A stretch of DNA of 64,000 bases from IMG/VR virus record IMGVR_UViG_3300032305_002044, positions 1 through 64,000 of that record; one strand, given 5' to 3'. Origin of the DNA: a virus. Taxonomy: Duplodnaviria; Caudoviricetes. Positions 4,193 through 18,331 of this stretch are shown one piece after another; position 1 is the stretch's first letter, and each line of letters begins with the position of its first letter. The translations under genes were made by a program, and so were the position numbers. The notes beneath the pieces are model-generated. The model did not search any database and was not told the origin of the DNA. It was given only the letters and a program-made list of their open reading frames with translations.

Positions 4193-6211
4193 ATGTTGTC
4201 ATTTAAGTTGACTGACGAGTTCATCTCGTCGTATGAAGGTAAAAAAGTTCCCTGGGGTTACCAAGACGCAGGTGGAAATGCGGTCGGGGAAATCACATTT
4301 CTACGAACCTATTCTCGTAAGAAAGAGGATGGCACTAAAGAGACTTGGGTAGAAGTTTGCCGTCGTGTTATTGAGGGTATGTACTCAATCCAGAAAGATC
4401 ACTGCAAGACCAACCGTTTGCCGTGGAATGAGAACAAGGCGCAAGCCTCGGCTAAAGAGGCTTTCGAACGCCTGTTCGAACTTAAGTGGACTCCGCCAGG
4501 CCGTGGGTTATGGGTAATGGGTACTCCTATTGTTACTGTGCAAAAGAATAGCGCGGCTCTACAAAACTGCTCATTTGTATCCACAGAGTCAATGACCAAG
4601 CACAACCCAGCCAAGCCATTTGCGTTCCTAATGGAAGCCTCAATGCTAGGTGTAGGTGTGGGCTTTGATGACAAAGGGGCAGACAAAGAGTTCACCATTT
4701 ACGCACCAACACAAACTATCAGCGAGTATGTAATCCCTGATACCCGTGAGGGTTGGGTGGAATCCACCTCTGCTCTGATTAACTCTTACCTACGCCACGA
4801 CCAGCCAACCCTTAGTTTTGACTATAGTGAAATCCGTAAAGAAGGAGAACCTATCAAGACGTTTGGTGGTACGGCAGCGGGCCCTGATCCGTTGAAGGCG
4901 CTTCACCAGCATATTATCCGAATCTTCAAAGATAGAGAAGGCACATTATTAACTAGAGTGGACATTGCCGATTTGGGTAACCTTATTGGAGTGTGCGTAG
5001 TGTCGGGTAACGTGCGCCGTTCTGCTGAGCTACTAATGGGTCGCTTGGATGATGATGACTTCCTTAATCTAAAAAATAGTGAGCGTTTTCCAGAGCGCAA
5101 TAGCTATGACAAGAAAGCTCCAGGTTGGGGTTGGATGTCCAACAACTCTGTTGGCATCTCTGTTGGGGATGATCTATCAGGAATTATTGACGGTATTGCT
5201 TTGAATGGTGAGCCTGGTGTTATTTGGATGGATGTAACCCGTAAGTACGGTCGCCTCATTGACCCACCAAACAACAAAGACTGGCGGGCAGCTGGATACA
5301 ATCCGTGTGCAGAGCAGAGCCTAGAATCGTTTGAGTGCTGTACTCTAGTCGAGACTTACCTTAACCGCCACGACGATATGGCAGATTACTTGCGAAGTCT
5401 AAAGTTTGCTTACCTGTATGCCAAGACGGTTACGCTTCTACCTACCCATTGGGAGGAAACCAACGCTATTATGCAACGTAATCGCCGTATTGGTACTTCA
5501 ATGTCTGGTATTGCTAACTTTGCTGATAAGAACGGACTACCTGAACTTCGTACTTGGATGGACTCTGGTTACGACACCGTGCTGAAGTACGACAGGATGT
5601 ACTCGGAATGGTTGGGTATTCGTGAGTCAATTAAAACTACTACCGTTAAGCCAAGCGGGACTGTGTCTATTCTAGCTGGTGAAAGCCCAGGTGTGCATTG
5701 GACTCCAGGTGGCAGGCACTTCTTACGAGCTATTCGCTTTGCCAATGATGACCCAATGTTACCTCTTTTTCAGTACGCAGGGTACACGGTTGAACCTGCT
5801 AGTGAGTCTCCAAAGACTACCAGCGTAGTTTTCTTTCCTGTGGAATCAGACGCTTCTCGTAGTGAGAAAGATGTCTCTATCTATGAAAAAATGTCTCTCG
5901 CTTCGGTAGCTCAACGCCATTGGTCAGACAACTCGGTCTCGGTTACTGTATCCTTTAATAAGGACACGGAAACTAAAGATGTTGGTACAGTCCTACACCT
6001 CTTTGACGGGCAACTCAAAACTGTTTCTTTCTTACCAATGGGAAACAAGACTTACCCGCAAATGCCGTACACACAGATAACTGCCGAACAGTATGAAGAT
6101 TACAAAATGAAACTGCTACCCATTGACTTTACAGATGTCTATGCAGGAATGGCAGCCGACGCTATCGGTGAGAAATACTGCAGTACGGATTTCTGCGAAG
6201 TACCGAAGTAA
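4193..6211 (+). CDS. nrdJ: Class II (adenosylcobalamin-dependent) ribonucleotide reductase, RTPR type
   Basis: PPGRGLW, LQNC, GNVRRSA, YNPCAEQ, TVKPSGT and C-terminal CSTDFC redox pair. Confidence 0.95.
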   Translation: MLSFKLTDEFISSYEGKKVPWGYQDAGGNAVGEITFLRTYSRKKEDGTKETWVEVCRRVIEGMYSIQKDHCKTNRLPWNENKAQASAKEAFERLFELKWTPPGRGLWVMGTPIVTVQKNSAALQNCSFVSTESMTKHNPAKPFAFLMEASMLGVGVGFDDKGADKEFTIYAPTQTISEYVIPDTREGWVESTSALINSYLRHDQPTLSFDYSEIRKEGEPIKTFGGTAAGPDPLKALHQHIIRIFKDREGTLLTRVDIADLGNLIGVCVVSGNVRRSAELLMGRLDDDDFLNLKNSERFPERNSYDKKAPGWGWMSNNSVGISVGDDLSGIIDGIALNGEPGVIWMDVTRKYGRLIDPPNNKDWRAAGYNPCAEQSLESFECCTLVETYLNRHDDMADYLRSLKFAYLYAKTVTLLPTHWEETNAIMQRNRRIGTSMSGIANFADKNGLPELRTWMDSGYDTVLKYDRMYSEWLGIRESIKTTTVKPSGTVSILAGESPGVHWTPGGRHFLRAIRFANDDPMLPLFQYAGYTVEPASESPKTTSVVFFPVESDASRSEKDVSIYEKMSLASVAQRHWSDNSVSVTVSFNKDTETKDVGTVLHLFDGQLKTVSFLPMGNKTYPQMPYTQITAEQYEDYKMKLLPIDFTDVYAGMAADAIGEKYCSTDFCEVPK

Positions 6212-8036: not shown

Positions 8037-8171
8037 TTATTTATGACACTCGCACTCGCAGGTGTAGGTCAAGCCTGTCAAGTTTGATGTGAACGATATG
8101 GTGCAATCGGTGTGGGTAGCGTCTACTCCACCACACCAACCAAAGAAGTTACTCTTACCCTTGCTACTCAT
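8037..8171 (-). CDS. Small Cys-rich protein (44 aa; not in ORF track)
   Basis: MSSKGKSNFFGWCGG...TCECECHK*; ATGA overlap. Confidence 0.55.
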   Translation of the reverse strand: MSSKGKSNFFGWCGGVDATHTDCTISFTSNLTGLTYTCECECHK

Positions 8172-8407
8172 ACTGTTACGGACTCTCTCATCAGGGTTGA
8201 TACTCGGTCTAATACATCAGGCACGTTAGAGTCTAAAGCTTCGCACAGGCTAAACATAAGATCGCTTGAGACTTCCTTGACACCTCTTTCTATCTCGGAG
8301 ATGTACCCCAGAGACATAAGAGCTTTGGTAGATAGTTCCCGTAAAGTCCAACCTTGCTTAATCCGCAGGTCTTTAATTACTATTCCTAGCGCGGTTCGGT
8401 ACAACAT
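8168..8407 (-). CDS. XRE-family HTH regulator, ClgR-like
   Basis: QG.TLRE.S..A..SLGY.SEIERG.KE.SS.L...LC.AL matches actinobacterial ClgR. Confidence 0.8.
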   Translation of the reverse strand: MLYRTALGIVIKDLRIKQGWTLRELSTKALMSLGYISEIERGVKEVSSDLMFSLCEALDSNVPDVLDRVSTLMRESVTV

Positions 8408-8409
8408 AA

Positions 8410-8610
8410 CTAGTTTATTTCCTTTCTTGTAACGTACTCAAGTACGTCAGCTTCCTCTACGGCGCATTGAAGTTGAGCATAAAGAGCAGATAGTTCGCGG
8501 TAAGTTAGGTAGTAAAGGGTGTCTTTGATAGTTATTGGGTGGAGTATTGGTTTCATTTCCTTATTAGTTTCCTTATCCATTGACTTCAACGTGTTCGTCA
8601 GATAGTTCAA
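8410..8610 (-). CDS. Hypothetical protein
   Basis: Operon position; start uncertain. Confidence 0.55.
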   Translation of the reverse strand: MNYLTNTLKSMDKETNKEMKPILHPITIKDTLYYLTYRELSALYAQLQCAVEEADVLEYVTRKEIN

Positions 8611-8748
8611 TATCCCCGTCTTGCCAATCTGTCGCGCCTGTTCGGGGGTGAGCGTTCCACTTATCGAGAGCTTCCTGAGCTGTCTCGGCTTGTACCCAGT
8701 AGGTAATAACTTGTGTTATTTGATATTCCATTTTTATTCTTTCTTTGA

Positions 8749-8961
8749 TTAGTTCCAGTATTTGATCTTAGAGATACGGTAATTCGAGGCTTTCCAATCG
8801 TCTGTGTGGTGTTGCGCCCACTCAAAGGCTTGCTCGCTCGCGTGGTCAGGGTCATCTGCAAAGACTTTCATTTCATACGAGATGTTATTGCCGTCTTGTA
8901 ATCCTGTTATTGTTACCTCGTAGTCAGGTCGAGGTGGTTGCGGTTGTTCTGGCTCGGTCAT
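8749..8961 (-). CDS. Hypothetical protein
   Basis: SD GAGAGG; TAATG coupling. Confidence 0.65.
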   Translation of the reverse strand: MTEPEQPQPPRPDYEVTITGLQDGNNISYEMKVFADDPDHASEQAFEWAQHHTDDWKASNYRISKIKYWN

Positions 8962-9170
8962 TAGATACCTCTCTTTGGTCTGTATTTATTAGCAATAGTG
9001 TAGTTAATATCGAGATACTTAATCAAAGTTGGTAGATAACTAGCGGTAAAGCTAACTTTCGGCTCATCTTCGGATAAGTTCCAAACAGCATAACGGGAGT
9101 CCCCGTCATATTCTGGATAATGTTCCCCGTACTCTGTAATAACTAATCCGCTTCGGTGTTTAATAGCCAT
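8961..9170 (-). CDS. Hypothetical protein
   Basis: TAATG coupling at both ends. Confidence 0.65.
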   Translation of the reverse strand: MAIKHRSGLVITEYGEHYPEYDGDSRYAVWNLSEDEPKVSFTASYLPTLIKYLDINYTIANKYRPKRGI

Positions 9171-9907
9171 TACGCACCTGCAAAAGTTTGTGTTGGGATA
9201 AGCATTATTACTGGTGAGAGCGGAGGATAAACCGTTCGGTGGTTCTCTCGGTCACAAGCAGACCACAACCTAAGTTGGGTAAGCTTGAGGACATCTTGGA
9301 ACAGACCAGTAGTTGTATCGTCACTCTCACCAGTAGTAATGGGATTAACCACGCGAGGTAAAGGTCGCAAGTTGAGACTCCTCCAATGCTCGCTTCGTCT
9401 AACGCGGTCTCCAATTTGAGGGAGACACCTCATAGATGAGCAAAGCGGAACGTATTTACCACGACCTTTACTCACCAGACACAGGCAAAATGCCCCTGAA
9501 CGTGCGTGGTTAAAGGGATTAGTATCAACAGAGAATAACTTACTACTACCAACCCTGACAACGCTAGGCGTGTACTTCGTGGTTCGAGTAGATACCGTTG
9601 TTGATACTAAGCTTGTTAGTAGGCGCAGAGGCACAGGCATTGTTGCAATATGCGAACGCAGGTCGTACGTTGCGCCTACTAAGCTTGTTAGTACGCCCAG
9701 AGGCTCAACCCCTACTAGTGAGCCACAGTCACTCTTACGCATAGCGCGTTCAGACAGGCACTCCGTTCGCAAGTGAGCGTTGGGCGTACTAAGTTTAGTA
9801 AGTGGCATAGGCGCAGGTACTTCTAGGACTGAAAGGAAGTAAGTATCCATTATGGAAGTCCTTGCCGAGATTTCACCAGTCGGTTTAACGCCTATGCCAC
9901 AAGTCAT
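9170..9907 (-). CDS. 245-aa ORF of atypical composition overlapping the structured array
   Basis: Open for 246 codons with TAATG overlaps at both ends; no recognisable fold. Confidence 0.5.
   Translation of the reverse strand: MTCGIGVKPTGEISARTSIMDTYFLSVLEVPAPMPLTKLSTPNAHLRTECLSERAMRKSDCGSLVGVEPLGVLTSLVGATYDLRSHIATMPVPLRLLTSLVSTTVSTRTTKYTPSVVRVGSSKLFSVDTNPFNHARSGAFCLCLVSKGRGKYVPLCSSMRCLPQIGDRVRRSEHWRSLNLRPLPRVVNPITTGESDDTTTGLFQDVLKLTQLRLWSACDRENHRTVYPPLSPVIMLIPTQTFAGA
9203..9900. ncRNA. Candidate structured RNA or ssDNA array: six tandem long-stem domains
   Basis: Closing stems 9203-9220/9324-9341, 9345-9354/9504-9513, 9519-9530/9599-9610, 9616-9627/9671-9682, 9688-9699/9781-9792, 9802-9813/9889-9900; GAG...CGT caps five of them. 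Confidence 0.75.
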
Positions 9908-11778
9908 TAGAGACTCCGTAAGATGTTACGAGCCACACTAACAAGCTCGTTAGGCTTGGAAACTAATTCAATAGAATGTGCGTGGTGGCGGTAACGCTTC
10001 ATTGTGGCTTCCCTGTCCAGCGCAGACTGTTCCATAATCCACTCACTACTACTAATGAATACAATCTGACTAATAGTGCCGTCAATATTGTTAATACGCT
10101 TAATAGTAGAGTCACACTCGTCAGAGCGTGACCACTCCCCGTCTGTGATTACGAATAACAACTTAGTCTTGCGCCTTGAGGACTCAAGTATTGCCTCGGC
10201 GTCAAGCAAAGCGTCAAGTGGGTCAGTACCTCCACCGTCATACCAAAATCGGTATTGACTAGTGGCACGTTCGTTACTTCCATAAACAAGCTTGGTCTTG
10301 TCACTAAAGCCAATGACCGTAACCTTGCCGTCAATTTCCTCCAGCGCACGTTTGATCGCCCACATAGATTGAGAGACCTCCTTGATTACGTTGCCCATAG
10401 AGCCTGATGTGTCGCACATAATAACGGCTTCGATATTAAACTCGTCACGCCCCTCACGCCACTCATCAAAGACCGTGTTGATATCGTTGATATCCATATT
10501 CATAACACGGTTGATATTGAGCCTACCAACAGGCTTCTCAATGTCCCAATGTGGGTCGCTGTCAATACGAAGCTTGCTAAGTTCCTGACCAAAGGCTTTA
10601 CTCGCCACGCGGTAAGCGTTATCTACTGGGAGTAGATCGGAGGTTGCCTTGAGGTCTGTACGACCTGCACGGTCAGACTCACGGATAGCAGAACGTAGTT
10701 GTCGAGCCTCGGTCTTGGCTTGCTTAGACTTCATAACAGACTTGATAGCCTCGCGCACTACGTCAGCAAACTCCTTATCCATTTCGGTACGTTCCATAAG
10801 TGGGTCATATTCTTGGGACTCACCCTCGACACCTGCACCTGCACCTGCACTCGGCTCGGCGTTGGGTGGGATATTCTCGGCTTTCTTGTCCATATTCTTA
10901 GCACGATTAGCAATATTGCTTTGCTTATCATTACTTTCAGGTCTGCCAGACTTGAGCATTGAGCGTGAGCCACATTGTCCCTCGGTCTTATTCTTTGGGT
11001 CAGCAAGCTTGAGCAGGTTGTGAAACTCAACAATGAGATCATAACCACGTTCGTAATCACTTGGGTAAGTAAGTAGTCGGTATTCATCTATGATACGAGC
11101 GACATTGTTAGCGTGAGTTGAGCCGTGCCGTGCCACATAAAGGTCAGCAGATAGTTGGCGCACCTCGATAGGCAGGTAACGCCGACCTCGGATTAAAGGA
11201 AACAAGTCACTTGGGTCTGGGTTACTCATAATGTAAGTCAAAACAGACTGGGTAAGTGACAGGGTAGTGCTTGGGAAACGCGCGGTCATAAGAGTTTCGA
11301 TACGCAAGTCCTCAAGGATATTGAAAGAGGTTTGGTATCCACCTGATGTAACCTTGCGCCCAAACTCGGAGTTACCTCGAGGTGACCACAGGATATGAGC
11401 AACTTCGTGGTAGTTAATACCGTTAAGGCTAATGAGACTGTTATCGTCAATCTCGGCTAAGACGTTTGTGTTGAGATAGATAGTCTTGCCGTCATTGAAC
11501 GCAGGTGCTTCACCCATTGACTCCATATTGCTAAAGTCACCAGCAGTAACGGTAATACTAGACTTGGTAAGCACACTATCCGCAGTCTGGTACACACCAG
11601 CAATAGCCTGAAACCTAGCAAGCTTCTTAGCCTGTTTAGCCACAAGGTAGTCCTTGAGTTCGTCACGTTCGATCTGGGATAGACCCTCGCTAGAGTTGGT
11701 GCTGTTGTAGTCATACCAGTCTTGGTACAGGTTGCCCGTATTGGCAGACTTAGCAGGTTTCTTAGTTGGCATTACCAT
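9907..11778 (-). CDS. vWA (MIDAS) domain protein with an N-terminal HExxH domain, CobT-like partner of MoxR AAA+
   Basis: YHEVAH, NILEDLRIE, DTSGSM, GGT, ITDG. Confidence 0.85.
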   Translation of the reverse strand: MVMPTKKPAKSANTGNLYQDWYDYNSTNSSEGLSQIERDELKDYLVAKQAKKLARFQAIAGVYQTADSVLTKSSITVTAGDFSNMESMGEAPAFNDGKTIYLNTNVLAEIDDNSLISLNGINYHEVAHILWSPRGNSEFGRKVTSGGYQTSFNILEDLRIETLMTARFPSTTLSLTQSVLTYIMSNPDPSDLFPLIRGRRYLPIEVRQLSADLYVARHGSTHANNVARIIDEYRLLTYPSDYERGYDLIVEFHNLLKLADPKNKTEGQCGSRSMLKSGRPESNDKQSNIANRAKNMDKKAENIPPNAEPSAGAGAGVEGESQEYDPLMERTEMDKEFADVVREAIKSVMKSKQAKTEARQLRSAIRESDRAGRTDLKATSDLLPVDNAYRVASKAFGQELSKLRIDSDPHWDIEKPVGRLNINRVMNMDINDINTVFDEWREGRDEFNIEAVIMCDTSGSMGNVIKEVSQSMWAIKRALEEIDGKVTVIGFSDKTKLVYGSNERATSQYRFWYDGGGTDPLDALLDAEAILESSRRKTKLLFVITDGEWSRSDECDSTIKRINNIDGTISQIVFISSSEWIMEQSALDREATMKRYRHHAHSIELVSKPNELVSVARNILRSL

Positions 11779-13198
11779 TGTTAAGCACCTCCATAACAGG
11801 CTCGGCAGGAGTGGAGTGAGCCAAACCTAGTTCCTCCTCAATGTTGTAGCGGTAAGTGTCAATAACTAACTTGACACTTGCTTGCTCGCGCATTGGGAAT
11901 AGGTTGAGGTAGGCATAGATACCGTAGTCAATACCAAGACTGTTAATGTTACCCATTAGAGCAACAAGTGAACGAGTCGAGATCGGAGTCTGGATTTCCT
12001 CCTCCTCGAAACGGTCGCGTAATGAATTAGCCATTTCCAAGATTGCCTTACTTTTGATTAGTTTACCCTCAATGTCTGGGTCGTAAGGGAAGTCGAGGTG
12101 GTGTGTGAACCTATCGTTGAAAGCTTGGGATAGTTCCCGAGTACCACGATAGCCAAGATTACCGTCAGCAACAATGAGCAGATCAGGGTGAGCCTTGACA
12201 ACCTCCCCGTCTTTATCCGTTAGTTGGATTTCACGGCGGTAATCTAGTAGAGAATACAATTCCGAGGCGGTACGTTCAGGCATAAAGGTAATCTCACCAA
12301 TAAGCAAGACTCCACCGTTGCGTACCAAGTCTGTTATTGCCCCGTCTTGCCAATGGAAGTGACCGTCTGGGCTTGGGTTGTATCCACCAAATAGTTTCTT
12401 GGTATCCGTGCCAGCAGAGCAAGAGAAGTTGTAGTAACGGTATCCGCGAGCCGAGGCGTAAGCCATAACCGAGGAAGTCTTACCAGAACCAGCGTGACCA
12501 GTAATAAGCACGTTCTCGTCATTACGCATAGCAACGTCAAAGATATCAAAATCAGTAACATCACCTACGACCTTGCGGTTGATGTATTGCTTTGCCCACT
12601 TGATATCAGGCACACTTGCCAATTCCATTACCAAGCTTGGTGTGGTGGTCTGGCGAGAGATAGCAGGTTGGTTAGGTACTGCCACGTTAGAAATTGTCGG
12701 GGTGACTGGATTGCTAACAGGACTATTACCAAAGGCACGGTTAGGCACTAGGGCAGGAAACTCGATTGAGGTGTCCTTGTAACGGGAGTCGGTCAAGTAG
12801 ATAGCAAGACTGCTATCAGCGTTCTCGAAACGTGATACCAAGTCTGATACTAGATCGAAGTGGTTGAGAGTGTAATCGCCACCAAGCTTGGTAAGTTGAT
12901 CGGAGGCGGTGGTGGTCTTGTATCCCAAAGTAGTTACCTTGCCACCTTGAATAGCAAAGTGGTCATTGTCGGTGAGACGGATAGCAACAGGGTTCTTAAT
13001 GACACGGGTATTAGGTAGATCAGATAGAGGCGTTAGTGTCCAAGCCTCGGAACGACCACGCTTACCCGTACTGGTACGGTGGAATAATTGAATTGCGCCA
13101 ATGGTGTAGTTTGGCACGATAATAGTTTGGTCAAGACCTGCTTCGCCATTGTCACCAATGGTCTCGGACAGGGACTCAACGTAGAGTGCGATTGTCAT
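11762..13198 (-). CDS. MoxR/CbbQ/CobS-family AAA+ ATPase
   Basis: Walker A GHAGSGKT, WQDG, N.GY.GT..L..AF.DRF, ISTR; adjacent to vWA gene. Confidence 0.9.
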   Translation of the reverse strand: MTIALYVESLSETIGDNGEAGLDQTIIVPNYTIGAIQLFHRTSTGKRGRSEAWTLTPLSDLPNTRVIKNPVAIRLTDNDHFAIQGGKVTTLGYKTTTASDQLTKLGGDYTLNHFDLVSDLVSRFENADSSLAIYLTDSRYKDTSIEFPALVPNRAFGNSPVSNPVTPTISNVAVPNQPAISRQTTTPSLVMELASVPDIKWAKQYINRKVVGDVTDFDIFDVAMRNDENVLITGHAGSGKTSSVMAYASARGYRYYNFSCSAGTDTKKLFGGYNPSPDGHFHWQDGAITDLVRNGGVLLIGEITFMPERTASELYSLLDYRREIQLTDKDGEVVKAHPDLLIVADGNLGYRGTRELSQAFNDRFTHHLDFPYDPDIEGKLIKSKAILEMANSLRDRFEEEEIQTPISTRSLVALMGNINSLGIDYGIYAYLNLFPMREQASVKLVIDTYRYNIEEELGLAHSTPAEPVMEVLNNGNAN

Positions 13199-13292
13199 AG
13201 TGGATTGCTTCCTTTCGTAAAGCTTGATTTATCCAATACAAGGACAGTACCAGTTATGGGTGAAATTACATAATTATTATCAAAAGATTTAG

Positions 13293-13308: not shown

Positions 13309-13745
13309 TTTATTTAGACTAATCCCATACCACACATAGGGGTCAAAAGTCAATAGTTTTCTCAAACTATTTTTGAGAGCTTTCCACTTGGCGTTAACAA
13401 GCTTTCGGGGCGTATCCCAACACCTAATCTAAGAAATATCGGGGGGTTTCCTGAATTGGCTATCAAATACTAATAGAGATAGAGAGAGAGGATTGGATAC
13501 ACTTCAGGTCACTTGAACCACCTATGAACAACTTTAGTAATAGGACTGGTATCTCTCTCTCTCACTCTCTTATCACATAACAGACTTGCGATACTAGCTA
13601 ATAATCTGGTCACGCAAGCGGTCAGGCTTGTCCCATATCACAGCAGTAGCCGACTGTCAAATCGGCGAGCATAACCAGCTGGGTAAGCTCTCTCTGGCCT
13701 ATACAGCTCTTCTCTCTCTGTCAAGCCGACACGCCGTTTAAGCGG

Positions 13746-13761
13746 TGTGACTTTGGTCACA
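13746..13761. promoter_or_regulatory. CRP/GlxR-type box 2
   Basis: TGTGA-CTTTGG-TCACA. Confidence 0.75.
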
Positions 13762-13858
13762 TTGTTTGTGTCGGCTTTAAAGCCGAATTCAGCTTTAAAG
13801 CTGAATTCATTCAGGGACAGCCTTTAAAGGCTTAGGGTGGGTGGGCCAACACAAACAA
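13762..13858. repeat. Multi-hairpin cassette copy 1
   Basis: TTGTTTGTGTCGGC...GCCAACACAAACAA arms; three internal palindromes centred on TTTAAA. Confidence 0.9.
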
Positions 13859-13866
13859 ATGGGCGC

Positions 13867-13908
13867 AAAAAAGCCCCCGAGACTACCAAGTTTGGCAATT
13901 TCGGGGGC
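13867..13908 (-). terminator. Intrinsic terminator
   Basis: GCCCCCGA/TCGGGGGC stem plus T6 on the minus strand. Confidence 0.75.
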
Positions 13909-13914
13909 GACTTC

Positions 13915-14091
13915 TTACTTAACTATCTTGTCTTTGATCCTGATCTCAACGACTTCCTCTGTGTGGTAGAACTCCTTGACTAGAGCATACGCGGTATCCC
14001 ACAGTTCTAACTCAATTCCGCCGTGCTTGTGCAGTTCTACTAACTCATCGGCTAGTTTTGGTGCTATTTCGAACAGTTTGCTGATTTCCAC
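13915..14091 (-). CDS. Small hypothetical protein (58 aa; not in ORF track)
   Basis: GTG start with SD AAGGAGG; MEISKLFEIAPKLADELV... Confidence 0.65.
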   Translation of the reverse strand: MEISKLFEIAPKLADELVELHKHGGIELELWDTAYALVKEFYHTEEVVEIRIKDKIVK

Positions 14092-14241
14092 AGCGTTTCC
14101 TCCTTAATAGGTTGGTTAGGGGTAGAGAGAGCCTACCGCCTATTGGTTTTGTAAGCCCCCGCACTACTTGTCGCACCTGCTCGTTGACAGGACTGTAACT
14201 TTCGCTTTTGGGAGTTACTCTGTTACCCCTAACCAAGATTG

Positions 14242-14457
14242 TTATTCGTCGTAATCGCCGTCTATTACGTCGTGTACTAGTTCTGTTAGTAGGTTCTCTA
14301 CGAAATTGTCCATACGACCAAGTATTTCGCCCGCAACCCTTTCCCAGACTTCGTCAGTTACGACGTATTCGTGTTCCCGTTGATCCTCAATTAACTCTTG
14401 GAAACTTTGCTTGGTAAGCCGATACTGATTTTGGCATACTACTGCGTTCATTAACAT
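14242..14457 (-). CDS. Small acidic hypothetical protein
   Basis: Coupled ORF; SD GGAG. Confidence 0.65.
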   Translation of the reverse strand: MLMNAVVCQNQYRLTKQSFQELIEDQREHEYVVTDEVWERVAGEILGRMDNFVENLLTELVHDVIDGDYDE

Positions 14458-14612
14458 ACGGTGATCTCCCAACTTCTAGAGCAGTCAGAGTCCTCGGTAA
14501 AGTCCTCTGCTACCCACTCGTCTACGATAGCCATAGCCTCCTCCTCGGAATTGGCTTCTACCTCGTCTGTGTGACTGATAGTAAGTTTGGCACGTACTAT
14601 GTACTTTTCCAT
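14451..14612 (-). CDS. Small acidic protein with VEANSEEEA motif (53 aa; not in ORF track)
   Basis: MEKYIVRAKLTISHTDEVEANSEEEAM...; a motif common in small phage early proteins. Confidence 0.65.
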   Translation of the reverse strand: MEKYIVRAKLTISHTDEVEANSEEEAMAIVDEWVAEDFTEDSDCSRSWEITVC

Positions 14613-14614
14613 AC

Positions 14615-14791
14615 CTACACTCCCTGATTAACGGTAATGCCCCACTCGGACTGTGGTGTTAGGCAATCGAGCAACTGCTCAATTCCCTCTAATAACCCAC
14701 ACGCGGAACAGATACGAGTCTTGTTATCTGTGCGTGACAAGGCTGGTGCGTCAGGCATTATGCCTGTAATACAACGTGGGCAAGTACTCAC
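14615..14791 (-). CDS. Small Zn-finger protein (58 aa; not in ORF track)
   Basis: CPRC...ALSRTDNK..ICSACG; SD GAGAGG. Confidence 0.7.
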   Translation of the reverse strand: MSTCPRCITGIMPDAPALSRTDNKTRICSACGLLEGIEQLLDCLTPQSEWGITVNQGV

Positions 14792-14835
14792 GGTTGATAC
14801 CTCTCTCTAGTGGGAGTCTTTCTCTCACTAACTAA

Positions 14836-14889
14836 ATAGTAAGGGCATTTCTCGCTCACAGATTTAGAGATTATGTGATCTAGGTCACA
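14836..14889 (-). promoter_or_regulatory. Early promoter: CRP-type box 3, 32-bp conserved spacer, -10 TACTAT
   Basis: TGTGA-TCTAGG-TCACA at 14874-14889; spacer shared with four other copies. Confidence 0.75.
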
Positions 14890-14890
14890 G

Positions 14891-14966
14891 TTGTTTGTGT
14901 TGGGCTTTAAAGCCCAATTTTGCAGCTTTAAAGCTGCTGTTTCGGCCTCGACGCCGACACAAACAA
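14891..14966. repeat. Multi-hairpin cassette copy 2
   Basis: Same arms; TTGGGC-TTTAAA-GCCCAA, GCAGC-TTTAAA-GCTGC, CGGC-CTCGAC-GCCG. Confidence 0.9.
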
Positions 14967-15038
14967 AAAAAAACAGAGTGGCTACCAGGAAACAGGACTG
15001 GTAGCCACTCACAGCGCGGAGATTAGGGAAACGCGCTG
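14965..15038 (-). terminator. Tandem hairpins ending in an intrinsic terminator
   Basis: 13-bp stem GAGTGGCTACCAG/CTGGTAGCCACTC plus T-run; upstream CAGCGCG stem. Confidence 0.8.
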
Positions 15039-15040
15039 GC

Positions 15041-15556
15041 TTAGCAGATAGAGAACCCACCTGAGTATTGCAGAAACTCTGCAAACTCCTTTACGTTCTC
15101 TACCGAGAATGGGTATTGAGTGCCGAAGTGAGGCTTGTTACCTGCCCCGTCACACCCATTACACCAACCGTGTGTACGACCATACAAGGCTTGGTGTTCT
15201 AGTGATAGTTCTTTGTCTGACTGGTCAATACCGTGAGGACTATCTGCCCCACGAATACCTGTTGCGTGGCACAACTCGCAGTCTACCAACGGTAGTTCTG
15301 ACTGCTCCTTGCGGTACTCTGCCTCGTAAGCAGCAGTACGACCTGACTCAATTTCATTGAGTAACAGTTTTGCTAACAACTCTGACTCCTTGGCTTGCAA
15401 GCCGTCACCGTCGTTAGAGTGTCCACTAACAGACTTGGTTAGTTCTGGTGCGACATACTCACAGTAGTTCCAAAGTGGTCGCCAGTACCAAACATTATTG
15501 CGAAAGTATTCCCCTGTCTCGTTCACAGGTGCAATACCGATTACATCCATACCCAT
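15041..15556 (-). CDS. Hypothetical protein with a DnaJ-like Zn-finger insert
   Basis: MGMDV..., YFRNNVWYWRPLW, CELCHATG...CNGCDGAG, F.EFL..SGGF.IC. Confidence 0.75.
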   Translation of the reverse strand: MGMDVIGIAPVNETGEYFRNNVWYWRPLWNYCEYVAPELTKSVSGHSNDGDGLQAKESELLAKLLLNEIESGRTAAYEAEYRKEQSELPLVDCELCHATGIRGADSPHGIDQSDKELSLEHQALYGRTHGWCNGCDGAGNKPHFGTQYPFSVENVKEFAEFLQYSGGFSIC

Positions 15557-15585
15557 TTTATTTTCCTCATCTCTAGTTAGGTATT

Positions 15586-15850
15586 TGGGCAGTTTTTGTC
15601 TTACCCAGGACACGCTTACTTACATAGAGTCTAACACTAAGCCTGACTCGTATCCGCAGACGGGGCATTCATACGCTAGTCCCACATCGTGCAGGTAATA
15701 AATCTCGTCTTTCTGATCTCCAGACGAAACCGTATCTGTTTTGGCATCAACGGTTAGTTTAGACTCGCAAGACTCACAAGTTGTTTTGTACATAATCACC
15801 TCTGTTCCTAACCTCTATTTTGGTAGGCAGTTTTTGTCATACCTAGGACA
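15586..15850 (-). repeat. Two copies (15586-15612, 15824-15850) of a ~27-nt intercistronic pseudoknot-like motif
   Basis: Minus strand TGTCCTRGGTAWGACAAAAACTGCCYA with a compensatory change. Confidence 0.7.
15620..15793 (-). CDS. Small Zn-ribbon protein (57 aa; not in ORF track)
   Basis: CESC...CPVCG; SD GAGGTG. Confidence 0.7.
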   Translation of the reverse strand: MYKTTCESCESKLTVDAKTDTVSSGDQKDEIYYLHDVGLAYECPVCGYESGLVLDSM

Positions 15851-15857
15851 CACTTAC

Positions 15858-16064
15858 TTAGACCTTGACTCCGCGAGGCGGGCGCACACTGCCTTGACTG
15901 ACAGTGTAGGTTGCTTCCCAATGATAATTCAAGATGTCGAGCTCATCTGTATTATGTGACTTAGCCGTCAGGCTAACCAGATTTGCTACCTCGTCTAGAG
16001 TTAGGAAGTCATCTCCCCCGTAAGTAATCTCTAGTATCATTGGTATTCTTGCTTTGTGACTCAT
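15858..16064 (-). CDS. Hypothetical protein
   Basis: SD GAGGTG; first gene after its promoter. Confidence 0.7.
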   Translation of the reverse strand: MSHKARIPMILEITYGGDDFLTLDEVANLVSLTAKSHNTDELDILNYHWEATYTVSQGSVRPPRGVKV

Positions 16065-16096
16065 TTAATCACCTCGTCTCCTAATCTCACTCTCTT

Positions 16097-16150
16097 AGTA
16101 TGCCCTAGTATTTCGCTCACGCATTTAGACTTTATGTGAGATAGATCACA
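16097..16150 (-). promoter_or_regulatory. Early promoter: CRP-type box 4, 32-bp spacer, -10 CATACT
   Basis: TGTGA-GATAGA-TCACA at 16135-16150. Confidence 0.75.
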
Positions 16151-16157
16151 TAGCGGA

Positions 16158-16227
16158 TTGTTTGTGTCGGCCTTTAAAGGCCGTTTGGGCACAGCTGGCC
16201 TTGAAGCCAGCCAGCCAACACAAACAA
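16158..16227. repeat. Multi-hairpin cassette copy 3
   Basis: Same arms; CGGCC-TTTAAA-GGCCG, GCTGGC-CTTGAA-GCCAGC. Confidence 0.9.
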
Positions 16228-16231
16228 AAAG

Positions 16232-16263
16232 TTATCCACAACTTATCCACAGGCTGTGGATAG
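16232..16263. promoter_or_regulatory. DnaA-box cluster 1 (three boxes)
   Basis: TTATCCACA at 16232 and 16243; inverted TGTGGATAG at 16255. Confidence 0.8.
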
Positions 16264-16289
16264 TGGGGCAGGTTGCCCTGCCCCACTAT
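16260..16289 (-). terminator. Hairpin after the DUF932 gene
   Basis: ATAGTGGGGCAGG/CCTGCCCCACTAT 13-bp stem. Confidence 0.65.
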
Positions 16290-16292
16290 TGA

Positions 16293-17309
16293 TTACAGAC
16301 CAGCAGTCTCGAGCACTGCCTTGCGAATGCGCGACTTCTCGGCATTCACTTGAGCGTCGAACCCACTAGCACTGGCGAGAATACCAGCGTTGGTACCCTT
16401 GCGCCCTAGTCGGTAGTAATCGACACGTTCGGTTAGCGCATTGAGCGCGCCCCAGCCTGTGCCCTTGATACCCGTCTGGGTAGGCCCGCGCCACAATTCC
16501 CACATAGTGTCGACTTTATCGTCGTACTTGGTGAGAACTGCTTTACCAGCAGTCTGGCGATCTGGCGCAGGGTAAAGACCCTCGATGATTTCGCCGAACT
16601 GCTTATCGGTGATAGCCGATTGGAACAGCGCGTTGGCTTCAACCTCGAACTGGTCAAGATAGGTAAACGAGATACCTAGAGCCTCGCGAGCCTGAGCCAC
16701 GCGATCTTGCGCGGTCGCTGTATGGCGAACCTTGAAAGACTGCTTGGTACCCATGCCCAAAGCCATGTTAAGCGTATTCTGGCAAACCACCCGAACTGGC
16801 GTGGTCATAGCCTGAATTGCGCTAGAACCGTCGTGTGAGGTCGTGACCAGTAAGTAAGACTTGGTAACGTCGCCGATACCAGCCTTGTCAAGCACGATGT
16901 CTTTCCCGAGCTTAAGGCTTCCGAATACTGTGCGCCCGTTGCGAATTGCTCCAGCAGACTCCCAGTAACCTCCACCGTCGAGCAGGTTGTCACCGAATGC
17001 GAATAAATCCTCATTCTGGTAGGTGTGGTAACGATCTCCCACGACAGCCAACACGTCTGGCGTGTTGTTGTTCAACACGTCGTTGCGAACCACCATGAAA
17101 CTAGGTGATTTGGTGGTGTAACCCTCGGGCAGGATTACATCCTCTAGTCGGACATCCCAGCCAGATAGCAATGCGCTATCCAACATTTGCGAGGTCGTGA
17201 CGTGTTCATCTTCATCGAAGATGTGCTGAGCCAGACCATGCCATGCAGGCGCGCCACGCAGTGCAAATGCGACGTCGCCATTGGCGTTCATCTCTAAGTC
17301 GTGTGCCAT
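16293..17309 (-). CDS. DUF932-family phage/plasmid protein
   Basis: MAH.LE, PAWHGL, TSHDGS, TPVRVVCQNTL, RHT, GT.WG.LNALTE..D. Confidence 0.9.
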   Translation of the reverse strand: MAHDLEMNANGDVAFALRGAPAWHGLAQHIFDEDEHVTTSQMLDSALLSGWDVRLEDVILPEGYTTKSPSFMVVRNDVLNNNTPDVLAVVGDRYHTYQNEDLFAFGDNLLDGGGYWESAGAIRNGRTVFGSLKLGKDIVLDKAGIGDVTKSYLLVTTSHDGSSAIQAMTTPVRVVCQNTLNMALGMGTKQSFKVRHTATAQDRVAQAREALGISFTYLDQFEVEANALFQSAITDKQFGEIIEGLYPAPDRQTAGKAVLTKYDDKVDTMWELWRGPTQTGIKGTGWGALNALTERVDYYRLGRKGTNAGILASASGFDAQVNAEKSRIRKAVLETAGL

Positions 17310-17390
17310 AAGGCAATCACTCCCAATCTCGTGAGAACCCCTGAATACGTAAGTATCTCTCACGCCAGCCGTTGCTTCTCAACTGTTCCA

Positions 17391-17444
17391 ATAATAAAGT
17401 AGTTATTCGCTCACGAGTTTAGACTTTATGTGATCTACATCACA
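17391..17444 (-). promoter_or_regulatory. Early promoter: CRP-type box 5, 32-bp spacer, -10 TATTAT
   Basis: TGTGA-TCTACA-TCACA at 17429-17444. Confidence 0.75.
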
Positions 17445-17453
17445 CTGGGCCGA

Positions 17454-17525
17454 TGTTTGTGTCGGGCTTTAAAGCCCGATCAGCTTAAAGCTGCTGCGGC
17501 GGCCTTGAAGCCGCCGACACAAACA
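17454..17525. repeat. Multi-hairpin cassette copy 4
   Basis: Same arms; TCGGGC-TTTAAA-GCCCGA, CAGC-TTAAA-GCTG, CGGCGGC-CTTGAA-GCCGCCG. Confidence 0.9.
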
Positions 17526-17537
17526 ATTTTCAAGCGA

Positions 17538-17565
17538 CAAGCCAGCCCCCGTAGGGGCTGGCTTG
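17538..17565 (-). terminator. Hairpin after the DUF4192-like gene
   Basis: CAAGCCAGCCCC/GGGGCTGGCTTG 12-bp stem. Confidence 0.65.
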
Positions 17566-17582
17566 GCTTATTGCTTGCAGGG

Positions 17583-18101
17583 CTAAACCGCACCCTGCAA
17601 ACACTTGTCAATGGGATTATCAGCAAGTGATGCACCCCAAACGTGGGAAGGTACATTGTGCCTTATGGCTATGTCCAGTAGTTGCCAAAGGCTGTATTCG
17701 CCAAAGTCCTCGGTTTCGAGAACGGCGGTTACAGGTTCTTTGTTGTCCTCTAGCCAGTACGAACCTGCCCAGATAGCCAAGATAGCAAGGCGGGCAGTAC
17801 CGTTTGCCTTAGATGCCCAGTCCGCTAGCGTTTCGCGGTAACGCGTTAGGGTTTCCGTATCCTCGGCCACGTGCAACTCGTACATCTTGCGAAGTACCCC
17901 GTCACGTATTCTAATGTCGGCTAGTGATGATGCAGACTTAACGTCAAACTTACTGACTTTGCCTACTTCTAGATGCTCGATAATTCCGTTGAATCTTTCC
18001 AACCTTTTCTCGGGCGTGGTAATGCGTGGCAGGGGTAATTCTTTCCTGCCGTTGTCATTAGCGACTATGGCTAACGCAACTTCTTTTGTCATTGTGTCCA
18101 T
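17583..18101 (-). CDS. DUF4192-like protein
   Basis: SLADIRIRDGVL...YSLWQLL..AI..NVP..W pattern. Confidence 0.5.
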   Translation of the reverse strand: MDTMTKEVALAIVANDNGRKELPLPRITTPEKRLERFNGIIEHLEVGKVSKFDVKSASSLADIRIRDGVLRKMYELHVAEDTETLTRYRETLADWASKANGTARLAILAIWAGSYWLEDNKEPVTAVLETEDFGEYSLWQLLDIAIRHNVPSHVWGASLADNPIDKCLQGAV

Positions 18102-18146
18102 TAGGGACTCCTGTCTCTTTAGCTGAGCGGTTTCTCAACTGTTCCA

Positions 18147-18200
18147 ATAGTAAGCCCATTATTCGCTCAGCAATTTAGACTTTCTGTGATGTACGTCACA
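18147..18200 (-). promoter_or_regulatory. Early promoter: CRP-type box 6, 32-bp spacer, -10 TACTAT
   Basis: TGTGA-TGTACG-TCACA at 18185-18200. Confidence 0.75.
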
Positions 18201-18205
18201 CCGCG

Positions 18206-18288
18206 TTGTTTGTGTCGGGCCTTGAAGCCCGACCCCCTTCGGGGGAATAGCGGATATGGCTTTAAAGCCATATGCCGCCAACACAAAC
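18206..18288. repeat. Multi-hairpin cassette copy 5
   Basis: Same arms; GTCGGGC-CTTGAA-GCCCGAC, CCCC-TTCG-GGGG, ATATGGC-TTTAAA-GCCATAT. Confidence 0.9.
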
Positions 18289-18331
18289 TTTTCTACAGGT
18301 TGTCCACAGGCTGGGGATAACCTGTGGATAG
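18289..18331. promoter_or_regulatory. DnaA-box cluster 2 (three to four boxes)
   Basis: TTTTCTACA 18289, TTGTCCACA 18300, inverted TGGGGATAA 18312 and TGTGGATAG 18323. Confidence 0.75.

What the first reader, a model, noticed from the sequence alone, without database searches (positions are those of the whole stretch)
9203..9900. Hidden ~700-nt array of six long-stem structured domains with a conserved GAG/CGT cap
Seen: six back-to-back domains (9203-9341, 9345-9513, 9519-9610, 9616-9682, 9688-9792, 9802-9900), each closed by a 10-18 bp stem. The stem sequences differ but keep pairing, e.g. TTAGTATCAACA/TGTTGATACTAA, TTAGTAGGCGCA/TGCGCCTACTAA, TTAGTACGCCCA/TGGGCGTACTAA. Five domains have GAG on the 5' side and CGT on the 3' side at the top of the stem (G.U, A.G, G-C on the + strand; ACG...CUC on the - strand). 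Interiors vary in length and sequence but contain sub-hairpins and a recurring ACAG(G) junction. Linkers are 2-9 nt. The junction TACTAA-GCTTG-TTAGTA occurs twice and can form a mutually exclusive hairpin. I do not recognise this as tRNA, intron, CRISPR or a known ribozyme. Inference: a polycistronic precursor of small structured RNAs with a constant handle and variable payload (decoys, guides or antitoxin mimics), or an ssDNA cassette array. This is the best candidate here for an undescribed system.
Basis: partly seen in the sequence, partly recalled or inferred. Interest (0 to 1): 0.92.

Follow-up and report, generated by a model that had tools for sequence, protein, structure and literature searches.

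The report
ORF-threaded structured RNA array after vWA
A freshwater phage carries a conserved ~700-base stretch, just after its MoxR/vWA genes, that folds into six stem-closed RNA domains and is also kept open as a reading frame whose protein appears meaningless; this combination matches no catalogued RNA family.

Summary
Window 9203-9900 folds into six back-to-back domains, each closed by a 10-20 bp stem (fold z = -9.0 and -7.8 on the two strands). Four related phage sequences give 20 base pairs with compensatory double changes, against 0-3 in controls. Rfam, ARAGORN and searches for TROVE, integrase, reverse transcriptase and RNase III found nothing.

New here:
- A 245-codon ORF on the gene-sense (minus) strand covers the array exactly. 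It is kept open by repeated compensated frameshifts, yet its protein is unconstrained: dN/dS 0.54-0.73 against 0.06-0.15 for neighbours, flat codon-position changes, poor codon usage, AlphaFold pLDDT 36.
- The element is older than the array. Relatives with 33-45% identical vWA have, at the same place, either one long hairpin or four units threaded by a 166-codon ORF.
- All forms share a pyrimidine-rich loop (CUUCCUUUC-like), which resembles an anti-Shine-Dalgarno sequence. Its best complement among translation starts is the MoxR ribosome-binding site.
- The extra units share a fixed AC/CUC internal loop.

Most likely reading: a sense-strand regulatory RNA module of the MoxR-vWA message, expanded by unit duplication and read through by ribosomes. 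Function, processing and strand are not shown experimentally. The scan had separately noted the threaded ORF on this same stretch.

The parts
9170..9907 (-). 245-codon ORF (P0001) threaded through the whole array. Its start AUG overlaps the vWA stop (UAAUG), GGAG lies 7 nt upstream, and its stop overlaps the next gene's AUG.
   Evidence: 0 stops against 15 and 23 in the other sense frames; dN/dS 0.54-0.73; pLDDT 36; compensated frameshift blocks.
9802..9900 (-). Unit 6 (first in the transcript): a three-way junction with a 12-13 bp closing stem, variable hairpin A (9865-9883) and hairpin B (9815-9862).
   Evidence: Homologous to unit V1 of L008 (blastn E 5e-7), with the same predicted architecture and about ten compensated pairs read from the sequences.
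9830..9844 (-). Invariant 15-nt loop ACUUACUUCCUUUCA of hairpin B. It is anti-Shine-Dalgarno-like and is the most conserved piece of the element.
   Evidence: Invariant in 4 DNA sequences and in all 27 ORF translations as TYFLS. The same loop caps the single hairpin in L006, L009 and L028, and V1 in L008.
9688..9792 (-). Unit 5: 12-bp closing stem UUAGUACGCCCA/UGGGCGUACUAA, AC/CUC internal loop, branched interior.
   Evidence: (helices 7-10 hold 7 covarying pairs).
9616..9682 (-). Unit 4: 12-bp closing stem, AC/CUC internal loop, simple hairpin interior.
   Evidence: (closing-stem pair C-G to U-A in L007).
9519..9610 (-). Unit 3: 12-bp closing stem, AC/CUC internal loop.
   Evidence: (closing-stem pair A-U to G-C in L005).
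9344..9513 (-). Unit 2: 10-bp closing stem and a multibranched interior with four hairpins. Site of the +1 insertion that splits the ORF in the 158-aa lineages.
   Evidence: helix 20: 4 covarying pairs plus two internal G.U pairs on the minus strand.
9203..9341 (-). Unit 1 (last in the transcript): 18-20 bp closing stem with one C.A mismatch (U.G on the plus strand), cap ACG/CUC, long irregular hairpin.
9907..11778 (-). vWA-domain protein (CobT-like; weak DUF2201_N match). The element always starts within a few bases of its stop codon.
11762..13198 (-). MoxR-type AAA+ ATPase (AAA_5), first gene of the pair.
13208..13216 (-). MoxR Shine-Dalgarno region GAAAGGAAG, a perfect 9-nt complement of the unit-6 loop.
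   Evidence: rank 1 of 262 candidate translation starts by longest Watson-Crick match.

Best explanation
The element is an RNA-level module on the gene-sense (window minus) strand, at the 3' end of the MoxR-vWA message. It is not a conventional protein gene.

Its oldest part is a long hairpin placed right after the vWA stop codon. This hairpin presents a pyrimidine-rich, anti-Shine-Dalgarno-like loop (CUUCCUUUC). The loop most likely pairs with the MoxR ribosome-binding site, in cis or in trans, to damp or time expression of the pair, as the icaR 3'-UTR does in Staphylococcus aureus.

In the window's lineage the hairpin became part of unit 6. Five more stem-closed units followed, by duplication of a unit that carries a fixed handle: a closing stem with a UUAGUA/UACUAA base and an AC/CUC internal loop. 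The repeated handle is probably the recognition site of one factor, either a processing nuclease or a binding protein.

Ribosomes that finish vWA restart at the overlapping AUG and read through the array. Selection keeps that frame open although the peptide does not matter. Ribosome traffic therefore probably decides whether the domains are melted or folded.

Shown: the fold, the covariation, conservation of the loop and handle, the open but unconstrained frame, and the loop-to-MoxR-SD complementarity. Inferred: the strand, the pairing in vivo, the role of the handle, and translation gating.
For: Structure under selection:
- Fold z is -9.0.
- 20 pairs show compensatory double changes, against 0-3 in slid controls and 0 of 500 shuffles.
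- Unit 6 and L008 V1 keep the same three-way fold although half of the closing-stem pairs have changed on both sides.

Not a normal protein:
- dN/dS is 0.54-0.73, against 0.06-0.15 for vWA, MoxR and the 70-aa gene.
- Codon-position changes are 18/17/28 and 29/31/40, against 22/15/64 and 50/33/146 for vWA.
- The codon-usage score is about 0.03, against mostly 0.2-0.6 for ORFs of 150 aa or more, apart from two likely spurious ORFs below zero.
- AlphaFold pLDDT is 36 and pTM 0.12 with 27 sequences.
- Only 4 related clusters were found among 1.84 billion representatives.

Frame kept open:
- 0 stops, against 15 and 23 in the other sense frames.
- In L007 the indel pairs -1/+1, +5/+1, -1/-2 and +1/-1 each restore the frame.
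- In run X3 the indels +1/-1, and a group summing to +3, do the same.
- At least five out-of-frame blocks in the protein clusters all return to frame.
- The distant L008 array is also threaded by a 166-codon ORF that starts at the vWA stop.

Ancestral hairpin and loop.

Sense strand:
- All flanking genes are on this strand, and no plus-strand promoter-like site was found.
- G.U pairs lie inside covarying helices on this strand (helix 20).
- Wobble pairs in closing stems of L028 (2), L009 (1) and L008 (2) would be A.C mismatches on the other strand.

Loop and MoxR SD:
- The Watson-Crick complement is 9-10 nt. It ranks first among translation starts in the window genome (of 262), L005, L007, L006 and L009.
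- In L028 it ranks first by energy, and both partners carry lineage-specific letters (UUGUCC against GGGACAA).

Precedent: icaR, PMC3868564.
Against: - No RNA data exist for this phage, so neither transcript, strand, processing nor translation is observed.
- Fold energies and overall G.U counts are the same on both strands. Unit 1 has a wobble that fits the plus strand.
- The MoxR SD is also one of the longest canonical SDs in the genome, so part of the loop match follows simply from the loop resembling 16S rRNA.
- When the whole genome is scanned by duplex energy, the MoxR site is not among the top hits.
- In L008 the complement is only 6 nt.
- Most 33%-identity relatives have no hairpin at all.
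- In 12 of 27 protein clusters the ORF is split within unit 2, so read-through of the whole array is not absolute.
- The five handle-bearing units have no demonstrated target.
Confidence: 0.42

Rival explanations
1. Precursor of released small RNAs. Host RNases cut the A/U-rich linkers and free six stable, stem-closed RNAs of 67-170 nt. Through the shared handle and their own loops these act in trans as decoys or sponges for a host factor, for example a ribonuclease, a toxin that cuts UCCUU-type sites, or Shine-Dalgarno sequences of host mRNAs.
For: The units are stem-closed with short single-stranded linkers, and five share a handle found nowhere else in the genome. Unit number varies among relatives: 1, 4 or 6. 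Interiors diverge while handles stay.
Against: No RNA evidence exists. The array has no promoter or terminator of its own. Ribosome read-through, which selection maintains, would work against stable folding. No conserved loop other than that of unit 6 has a convincing complement.
Confidence: 0.2
2. Purely cis-acting mRNA architecture: a stack of stabiliser, terminator-like or RNase III-type hairpins. It sets the half-life of the MoxR-vWA message and separates it from downstream genes, with no sequence-specific pairing.
For: It sits directly after a stop codon. Some relatives carry an ordinary terminator there (L037, L070). The stem, internal loop, stem layout spans about two helical turns.
Against: An invariant 12-15 nt loop, kept across lineages whose vWA is only 33-45% identical, is not needed for a stabiliser. 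700 nt and a fixed internal loop are more than such a role requires. No U-tract follows the hairpins.
Confidence: 0.13
3. A real, fast-evolving, probably disordered protein. Its mRNA happens to be, or is secondarily selected to be, highly structured.
For: The frame is open in most relatives and is restored after indels. A good start context is conserved (GGAG or GAGGA upstream of the AUG). dN/dS is below 1.
Against: Whole blocks of 8-15 residues are replaced by out-of-frame readings of the same nucleotides. Codon usage is unlike that of the phage's genes. pLDDT is 36. No Pfam or PHROG match was found. The hairpin-only relatives keep the RNA feature without the ORF.
Confidence: 0.1
4. The functional molecule is the plus strand: an antisense RNA with SD-like purine loops (GAAAGGAAG, GGAGGA). 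It would bind 30S subunits or pair with the sense message.
For: The plus strand folds equally well (-265 against -260 kcal/mol). The cap closes better on it (G.U, A.G, G-C). Unit 1 has a U.G that fits this strand.
Against: No promoter-like site on the plus strand. Wobble pairs in covarying helices and in the hairpins of L028, L009 and L008 fit the sense strand.
Confidence: 0.07
5. A DNA-level element: hairpins or cruciforms in single-stranded or supercoiled DNA (replication, recombination or an integron-like cassette array).
For: The 148 pairs predicted on both strands are almost purely Watson-Crick (577 of 592 cells).
Against: No integrase or reverse transcriptase in the genome. No attC-type core sites were seen on reading the sequence. 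G.U pairs lie within covarying helices. The position directly after a stop codon and the SD-related loop point to RNA.
Confidence: 0.06

Closest known systems
icaR 3'-UTR anti-SD element of Staphylococcus aureus (PMC3868564)
   Same: A pyrimidine-rich motif downstream of the stop codon is complementary to the Shine-Dalgarno region at the 5' end of the same message. The icaR authors proposed action in cis or in trans, blocking ribosome loading and creating an RNase III substrate.
   Different: Here the motif sits in a long-stem hairpin loop after a two-gene (MoxR-vWA) unit about 3.4 kb from its target. It is phage-borne and, in some lineages, embedded in a 4-6 unit structured array that is itself translated. 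The pairing is not shown experimentally.
Large ornate bacterial and phage RNAs (GOLLD, ROOL, OLE; PMC12286853)
   Same: Multi-domain structured RNA of several hundred nucleotides. Those RNAs are known from lake metagenomes and phage contexts (own knowledge), with function long unknown.
   Different: No covariance-model match. Our element lies inside an operon and is threaded by a maintained ORF. Its domains are serial stem-closed units rather than one integrated fold. No evidence of oligomers.
Polycistronic tRNA arrays and phage T4 stable RNAs (own knowledge)
   Same: Head-to-tail units, each closed by pairing of its own 5' and 3' ends. The closing stems differ in sequence but keep a constant shape, suggesting a shared processing enzyme.
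   Different: No cloverleaf (ARAGORN found none in 93 kb). No T-loop or CCA features. Unit sizes are 67-170 nt. Translated.
Phage RNase III processing hairpins (T7 early sites, lambda sib retroregulator; own knowledge)
   Same: A stem, internal loop, stem layout of about two helical turns inside polycistronic phage mRNA. Placed after a gene and able to control the upstream message.
   Different: Those are single hairpins in intergenic RNA with no conserved apical loop or branched interior. Cleavage was not tested here.
Y RNA (YrlA) modules next to Ro60/Rsr, a TROVE plus vWA protein (own knowledge)
   Same: Several stem-closed structured RNAs encoded next to a vWA-containing protein, also found in actinophages.
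   Different: No TROVE domain anywhere in the genome. No Y RNA model match. The vWA protein here is CobT/DUF2201-like and is paired with MoxR.
Type III toxin-antitoxin RNA arrays (ToxI) and CRISPR arrays (own knowledge)
   Same: Tandem RNA units with a constant part that a dedicated nuclease could recognise.
   Different: Our units are not near-identical direct repeats and have no fixed period. No adjacent toxin or Cas gene was recognised.

Membership tests
Any Rfam 15 family (tRNA, Y RNA, 6S, 6C, introns, ribozymes, GOLLD/ROOL and others) | Covariance-model match at or near the gathering score | tested here: not met
   cmscan of 8500-10600, both strands, permissive filters: no match even at E <= 10.
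tRNA / tRNA-like array | Cloverleaf with anticodon arm detectable by ARAGORN | tested here: not met
   0 genes in the window and in the whole 93-kb genome.
Y RNA - Ro60/Rsr module | TROVE-domain protein encoded nearby | tested here: not met
   PF05731 has no match in the genome, while positive controls matched. The vWA protein matches VWA_2 and DUF2201_N only.
Integron attC cassette array | Integron-type tyrosine recombinase, and R''/R' core sites (RYYYAAC / GTTRRRY) | tested here: not met
   PF00589 has no match. The stem bases read TTAGTA/TACTAA, not the core consensus.
Retron / reverse-transcribed msDNA | Adjacent reverse transcriptase | tested here: not met
   PF00078 has no match in the genome.
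CRISPR or ToxI-type repeat array | Near-identical direct repeats at a constant period | tested here: not met
   The only repeat is a 40-nt junction repeat at 60-83% identity with spacings of 72 and 110 nt. Interiors are unrelated.
3'-UTR anti-SD regulator (icaR type) | [quoted passage not shown] | tested here: met
   9-10 nt Watson-Crick complement to the MoxR SD. It is the top-ranked translation start in the window genome, L005, L007, L006 and L009.
3'-UTR anti-SD regulator (icaR type) | Co-variation of motif and SD across lineages | tested here: inconclusive
   L028 changes both sides in step (UUGUCCUUU against AAGGGACAA, 9 bp with one G.U). L008 keeps only 6 bp. Only four lineages are available.
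3'-UTR anti-SD regulator (icaR type) | Pairing lowers translation or triggers RNase III cleavage | not testable with these tools
   Needs reporter and gel-shift assays.
Ordinary protein-coding gene | Purifying selection on amino acids, host-like codon usage, foldable or recognisable product | tested here: not met
   dN/dS 0.54-0.73. Flat codon-position changes. Codon score about 0.03. pLDDT 36. No Pfam or PHROG match. Out-of-frame blocks.
Ordinary protein-coding gene | Reading frame maintained among relatives | tested here: met
   Open in the window, L004, L005 and 15 of 27 clusters. Indels are compensated in pairs. Split once in the 158-aa lineages.
RNase III processing site (T7 / lambda sib type) | Cleavage by RNase III at a stem - internal loop - stem | not testable with these tools
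   The layout is compatible. The phage encodes no RNase III of its own.

The most novel reading that the evidence does not exclude
A new class of phage RNA device: a translated 'array gene' whose product is the folded RNA, not the peptide. Ribosome traffic entering from the upstream vWA gene would keep six handle-bearing domains melted. A drop in translation, for example during host shut-off or an abortive-infection response, would let them fold. The folded domains would then act as anti-Shine-Dalgarno or handle-mediated regulators or decoys. This would be a translation-gated RNA switch that grows by adding units.
Probability: 0.15. Interest if true: 0.9.

Novelty: new variant of a known kind. 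Interest (0 to 1): 0.74.

Why it matters
Few bacterial or phage RNAs of this size and complexity are known, and each has opened a line of work. This one adds two unusual features that can be tested directly. First, a reading frame is kept open by selection while its amino-acid sequence is free to change, which implies that the act of translation matters rather than the product. Second, the element has a visible history, from one hairpin with an anti-Shine-Dalgarno-like loop to arrays of four and six units carrying a fixed internal-loop handle.

It also gives a first regulatory lead for the MoxR/vWA ("CobS/CobT-like") gene pairs that are widespread in aquatic phages and still have no known role. 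For genome annotation, it is a clear case where a called "hypothetical protein" (27 clusters in public databases) is better described as an RNA element.

Tried and rejected
DNA for the 26 related protein clusters could therefore not be fetched, and covariation rests on four full DNA sequences plus partial variant lists.
- No RNA holder was listed among public runs. The four runs laid are DNA contigs only, so expression, strand and ends are unknown.
- blastn against GenBank phages: no match.
- A 16-mer scan of IMG/VR returned mostly chance hits. A gapped pattern for unit 6 found only the known relatives, and missed L027 because my minimum gap was one base too long.
- Strand by thermodynamics or by overall G.U counts: undecided.
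- Long-range pairing between unit 6 and unit 1 (14 nt, 79% complementary, I10): changes in L005 and L007 break it rather than compensate, so it was rejected (read).
- A closing helix joining the two ends of the array: only 4 invariant pairs, no support.
- Loop to MoxR pairing judged by duplex energy over whole genomes or loci: not distinguished from background. It stands out only among translation starts.
- Other conserved loops against all translation starts: only 6-8 nt matches, as expected by chance.
- Group II intron idea (six domains): no 5' GUGYG and no domain V match in Rfam.
- Gordonia phages with 28% identical vWA: no comparable element.
- The roughly 33% relatives mostly have the next gene directly after vWA.
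- The CUC side of the handle often reads CCUC(U/C), which is anti-SD-like. L008 units read CUCUCU instead, so this was not pursued.
- Complex prediction and the protein atlas were not used.
Full report
**What is there**

The window is the first 64 kb of a 93.4-kb IMG/VR virus record with 44% G+C. Its vWA protein finds only distant relatives, at most 37% identity and about 28% over the full length, in Gordonia, Brevibacterium and Microbacterium phages. Near-identical DNA occurs in freshwater and lake metagenome assemblies from several studies. It is therefore probably a freshwater actinobacterial phage.

The flagged stretch lies in a block of minus-strand genes: a MoxR-type AAA+ ATPase (11762-13198), a vWA protein (9907-11778), then small genes.

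Perfect 12-nt inverted repeats close four of them. A 10-nt pair and an 18-nt pair (94% complementary) close the other two. The 716-nt stretch folds with z = -9.0 (minus strand) and -7.8 (plus strand) against dinucleotide shuffles. Neighbouring coding DNA gives z -0.6 and +1.2.

**Is the fold selected?**

Three relatives carry the array: L004 (vWA 98% identical), L005 (95%) and L007 (89%). On the four-sequence alignment RNAalifold predicts 227 pairs, and 20 of them show a change on both sides that keeps the pair. The independent count gives:
- 97.7% of cells paired.
- 20 covarying pairs, against 0-3 when partners are slid by 1-3 columns.
- 0 of 500 shuffles reaching the observed value.

Covariation lies in closing stems (units 3 and 4) and in inner helices. 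Examples are GGAU/GUCC changing to AAGC/GCUU in unit 6, and four pairs in one helix of unit 2. Rfam 15 gives no match on either strand even at E <= 10. ARAGORN finds no tRNA in the window or the whole genome.

**The threaded ORF**

A 245-codon ORF on the minus strand (9170-9907) covers the array from end to end. Its AUG overlaps the vWA stop (UAAUG), with GGAG 7 nt upstream. Its stop overlaps the next gene's AUG. It has 0 stops where the other two sense frames have 15 and 23.

It does not behave like a protein gene:
- Changes against L005 and L007 fall 18/17/28 and 29/31/40 on the three codon positions, against 22/15/64 and 50/33/146 for vWA.
- dN/dS is 0.54-0.73, against 0.06-0.15 for vWA, MoxR and the downstream 70-aa gene.
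- The codon-usage score is about 0.03, against mostly 0.2-0.6 for other ORFs of 150 aa or more; two likely spurious ORFs score below zero.
- AlphaFold with a 27-sequence alignment gives pLDDT 36 and pTM 0.12.
- Pfam and PHROGs give nothing.
- A profile search of 1.84 billion representatives finds only four related clusters.

The frame is nevertheless defended:
- In L007 the indel pairs -1/+1, +5/+1, -1/-2 and +1/-1 each restore the frame within 10-16 codons.
- In run X3 a +1/-1 pair nine bases apart, and a group summing to +3, do the same.
- Among 26 related protein clusters at least five blocks (residues 26-37, 38-46, 140-145, 199-213, 226-238) are out-of-frame readings of the same nucleotides. 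They occur in different combinations, and each returns to frame.
- One uncompensated +1 in unit 2 defines the 158-aa lineages (12 of 27 clusters). In L007, a member of these lineages, a second ORF continues in the original frame to the next gene, with an AUG 11 nt before the first ORF's stop.

So the nucleotides and the openness of the frame are conserved, while the amino acids are not.

**A wider family and its history**

L008/L027 (vWA 43% identical) have four stem-closed units directly after the vWA stop: 4754-4861, 4871-4993, 4998-5134 and 5136-5275. A 166-codon ORF starting at the stop codon threads them.
- Their first unit is homologous to unit 6 (blastn E 5e-7). It folds into the same three-way junction, although six of twelve closing-stem pairs and several inner pairs have changed on both sides (read).
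- The other three units share no interior with the window's units. They keep the UUAG.../...CUAA stem base and the cap AC(G/U)...CUC.

L006 and L009 (43-45%) and L028 (33%) have a single 16-19 bp hairpin at the same place.

All forms carry one loop:

| Source | Loop |
|---|---|
| Window | ACUUACUUCCUUUCA |
| L009 | UUUACUUCCUUUCU |
| L006 | UUUCCUUCCUUUCU |
| L008 | CUUAACCUUUCU |
| L028 | AGUUACUUGUCCUUUCG |

This closely resembles the 3' end of actinobacterial 16S rRNA (CACCUCCUUUCU; my own knowledge, not checked with a tool). Most other relatives at about 33% identity, and the Gordonia phages, lack the hairpin. The unit count is therefore 0, 1, 4 or 6 across the family.

**Which strand?**

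Fold energies are equal on the two strands. The 148 pairs predicted on both strands are almost purely Watson-Crick. The extra wobble pairs are symmetric, 64 against 67 cells. These global measures do not decide.

Local evidence leans to the gene-sense strand:
- The best-supported covarying helix (unit 2, four double changes) contains two internal G.U pairs on the minus strand in all sequences.
- The hairpins or closing stems of L028 (two U.G), L009 (one G.U) and L008 (two U.G) would carry A.C mismatches on the other strand.
- Only unit 1 has a wobble that fits the plus strand.
- All flanking genes are on the minus strand, and no plus-strand promoter-like site was found.

I put about two in three on the sense strand.

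**What the loop may do**

The only 9-mer complement of the loop in the 93-kb genome is GAAAGGAAG, 9 nt upstream of the MoxR AUG. By longest Watson-Crick match among candidate translation starts, the MoxR site ranks:
- first of 262 in the window genome;
- first in L005, L007, L006 and L009 (9-10 nt);
- first by energy in L028.

In L028 both partners carry lineage-specific letters, UUGUCCUUU against AAGGGACAA.

Cautions:
- The MoxR SD is also one of the two longest canonical SDs in the genome.
- Whole-genome duplex ranking does not single it out.
- L008 retains only 6 bp.

The precedent is icaR. There a 3'-UTR UCCCCUG motif pairs with the SD of its own mRNA, blocks ribosome loading and creates an RNase III substrate, in cis or in trans (PMC3868564). 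No other conserved loop of the array has a convincing complement.

**Reading**

The best-supported account is a sense-strand RNA module of the MoxR-vWA message.
- An ancestral post-stop hairpin with an anti-SD-like loop probably feeds back on the MoxR ribosome-binding site.
- It was later built out by duplication of a handle-bearing, stem-closed unit.
- Five copies of one internal-loop handle, found nowhere else in the genome, argue for a single recognising factor. Its identity is unknown.
- The defended but meaningless reading frame argues that ribosome passage itself is selected.

The simplest idea is that ribosome traffic controls whether the domains fold. That part is inference.

Rivals are released decoy RNAs, a plain stabiliser or terminator stack, a disordered protein, an antisense RNA and a DNA-level element. 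They are weighed in their own sections. No integrase, reverse transcriptase, TROVE protein or phage RNase III is present.

**Novelty**

No catalogued RNA family matches. Public databases hold the element only as "hypothetical protein".

Three features are, to my knowledge, undescribed: the serial stem-closed units with a fixed AC/CUC handle, a conserved anti-SD-like loop, and a frame kept open by compensated frameshifts. Each ingredient has precedents (3'-UTR anti-SD elements, phage mRNA processing hairpins, large ornate RNAs such as GOLLD and ROOL, PMC12286853). I therefore class it as a new variant of a known kind rather than categorically new.

The scan had separately noted the threaded ORF on this same stretch (e1-5961637). 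I tested that note here and it holds.

Noticed in passing
window 13700-18300: Many short palindromes built on GCTTTAAAGC, and paired arms TTGTTTGTGTCGGC/GCCAACACAAACAA at 13762-13858 and 16158-16227. This region also gives the strongest local fold signals in the genome (200-nt windows, z -4 to -5).
   Followed up: no
window 13471-13572: A 20-nt inverted repeat rich in GA/CT (TAATAGAGATAGAGAGAGAG / CTCTCTCTCTCACTCTCTTA), 62 nt apart, just upstream of the MoxR gene region.
   Followed up: no
whole genome G000 (93,416 bases): ARAGORN finds no tRNA or tmRNA gene anywhere in this 93-kb phage genome.
   Followed up: yes
window 8961-9170 against L007:4590-4650: The 69-aa gene that follows the array in the window, L004 and L005 is absent from L007. 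There the array's second ORF ends directly on the AUG of the homologue of the 70-aa gene (window 8749-8961).
   Followed up: partly
L070:4870-4930: A relative with 31% identical vWA has a U-tailed terminator hairpin after vWA. Its apex reads ACUUCCCUCCUU, again anti-SD-like, but it has no evident complement in its MoxR start region.
   Followed up: partly
L006:5166-5260 and L009:4880-4975: A roughly 30-codon frame starting at GUG just after the vWA stop runs through the single hairpin, in the same register as the window's ORF (loop read as ..FLS). It ends in an AUGA overlap with a possible start of the next gene. This is too short to be significant on its own.
   Followed up: partly
window 8168-8407 (minus strand): The translation start of the 79-aa helix-turn-helix gene downstream in the same operon is the second-best complement (8 nt) of the unit-6 loop in the window genome, and likewise in L005.
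   Followed up: no
window 9605-9621 and 9677-9693: The two identical junctions contain a HindIII-type palindrome (AAGCTT). Each can form a 6-bp hairpin that competes with the bases of the neighbouring closing stems. The covarying pair in unit 3 supports the unit stems rather than this hairpin.
   Followed up: partly
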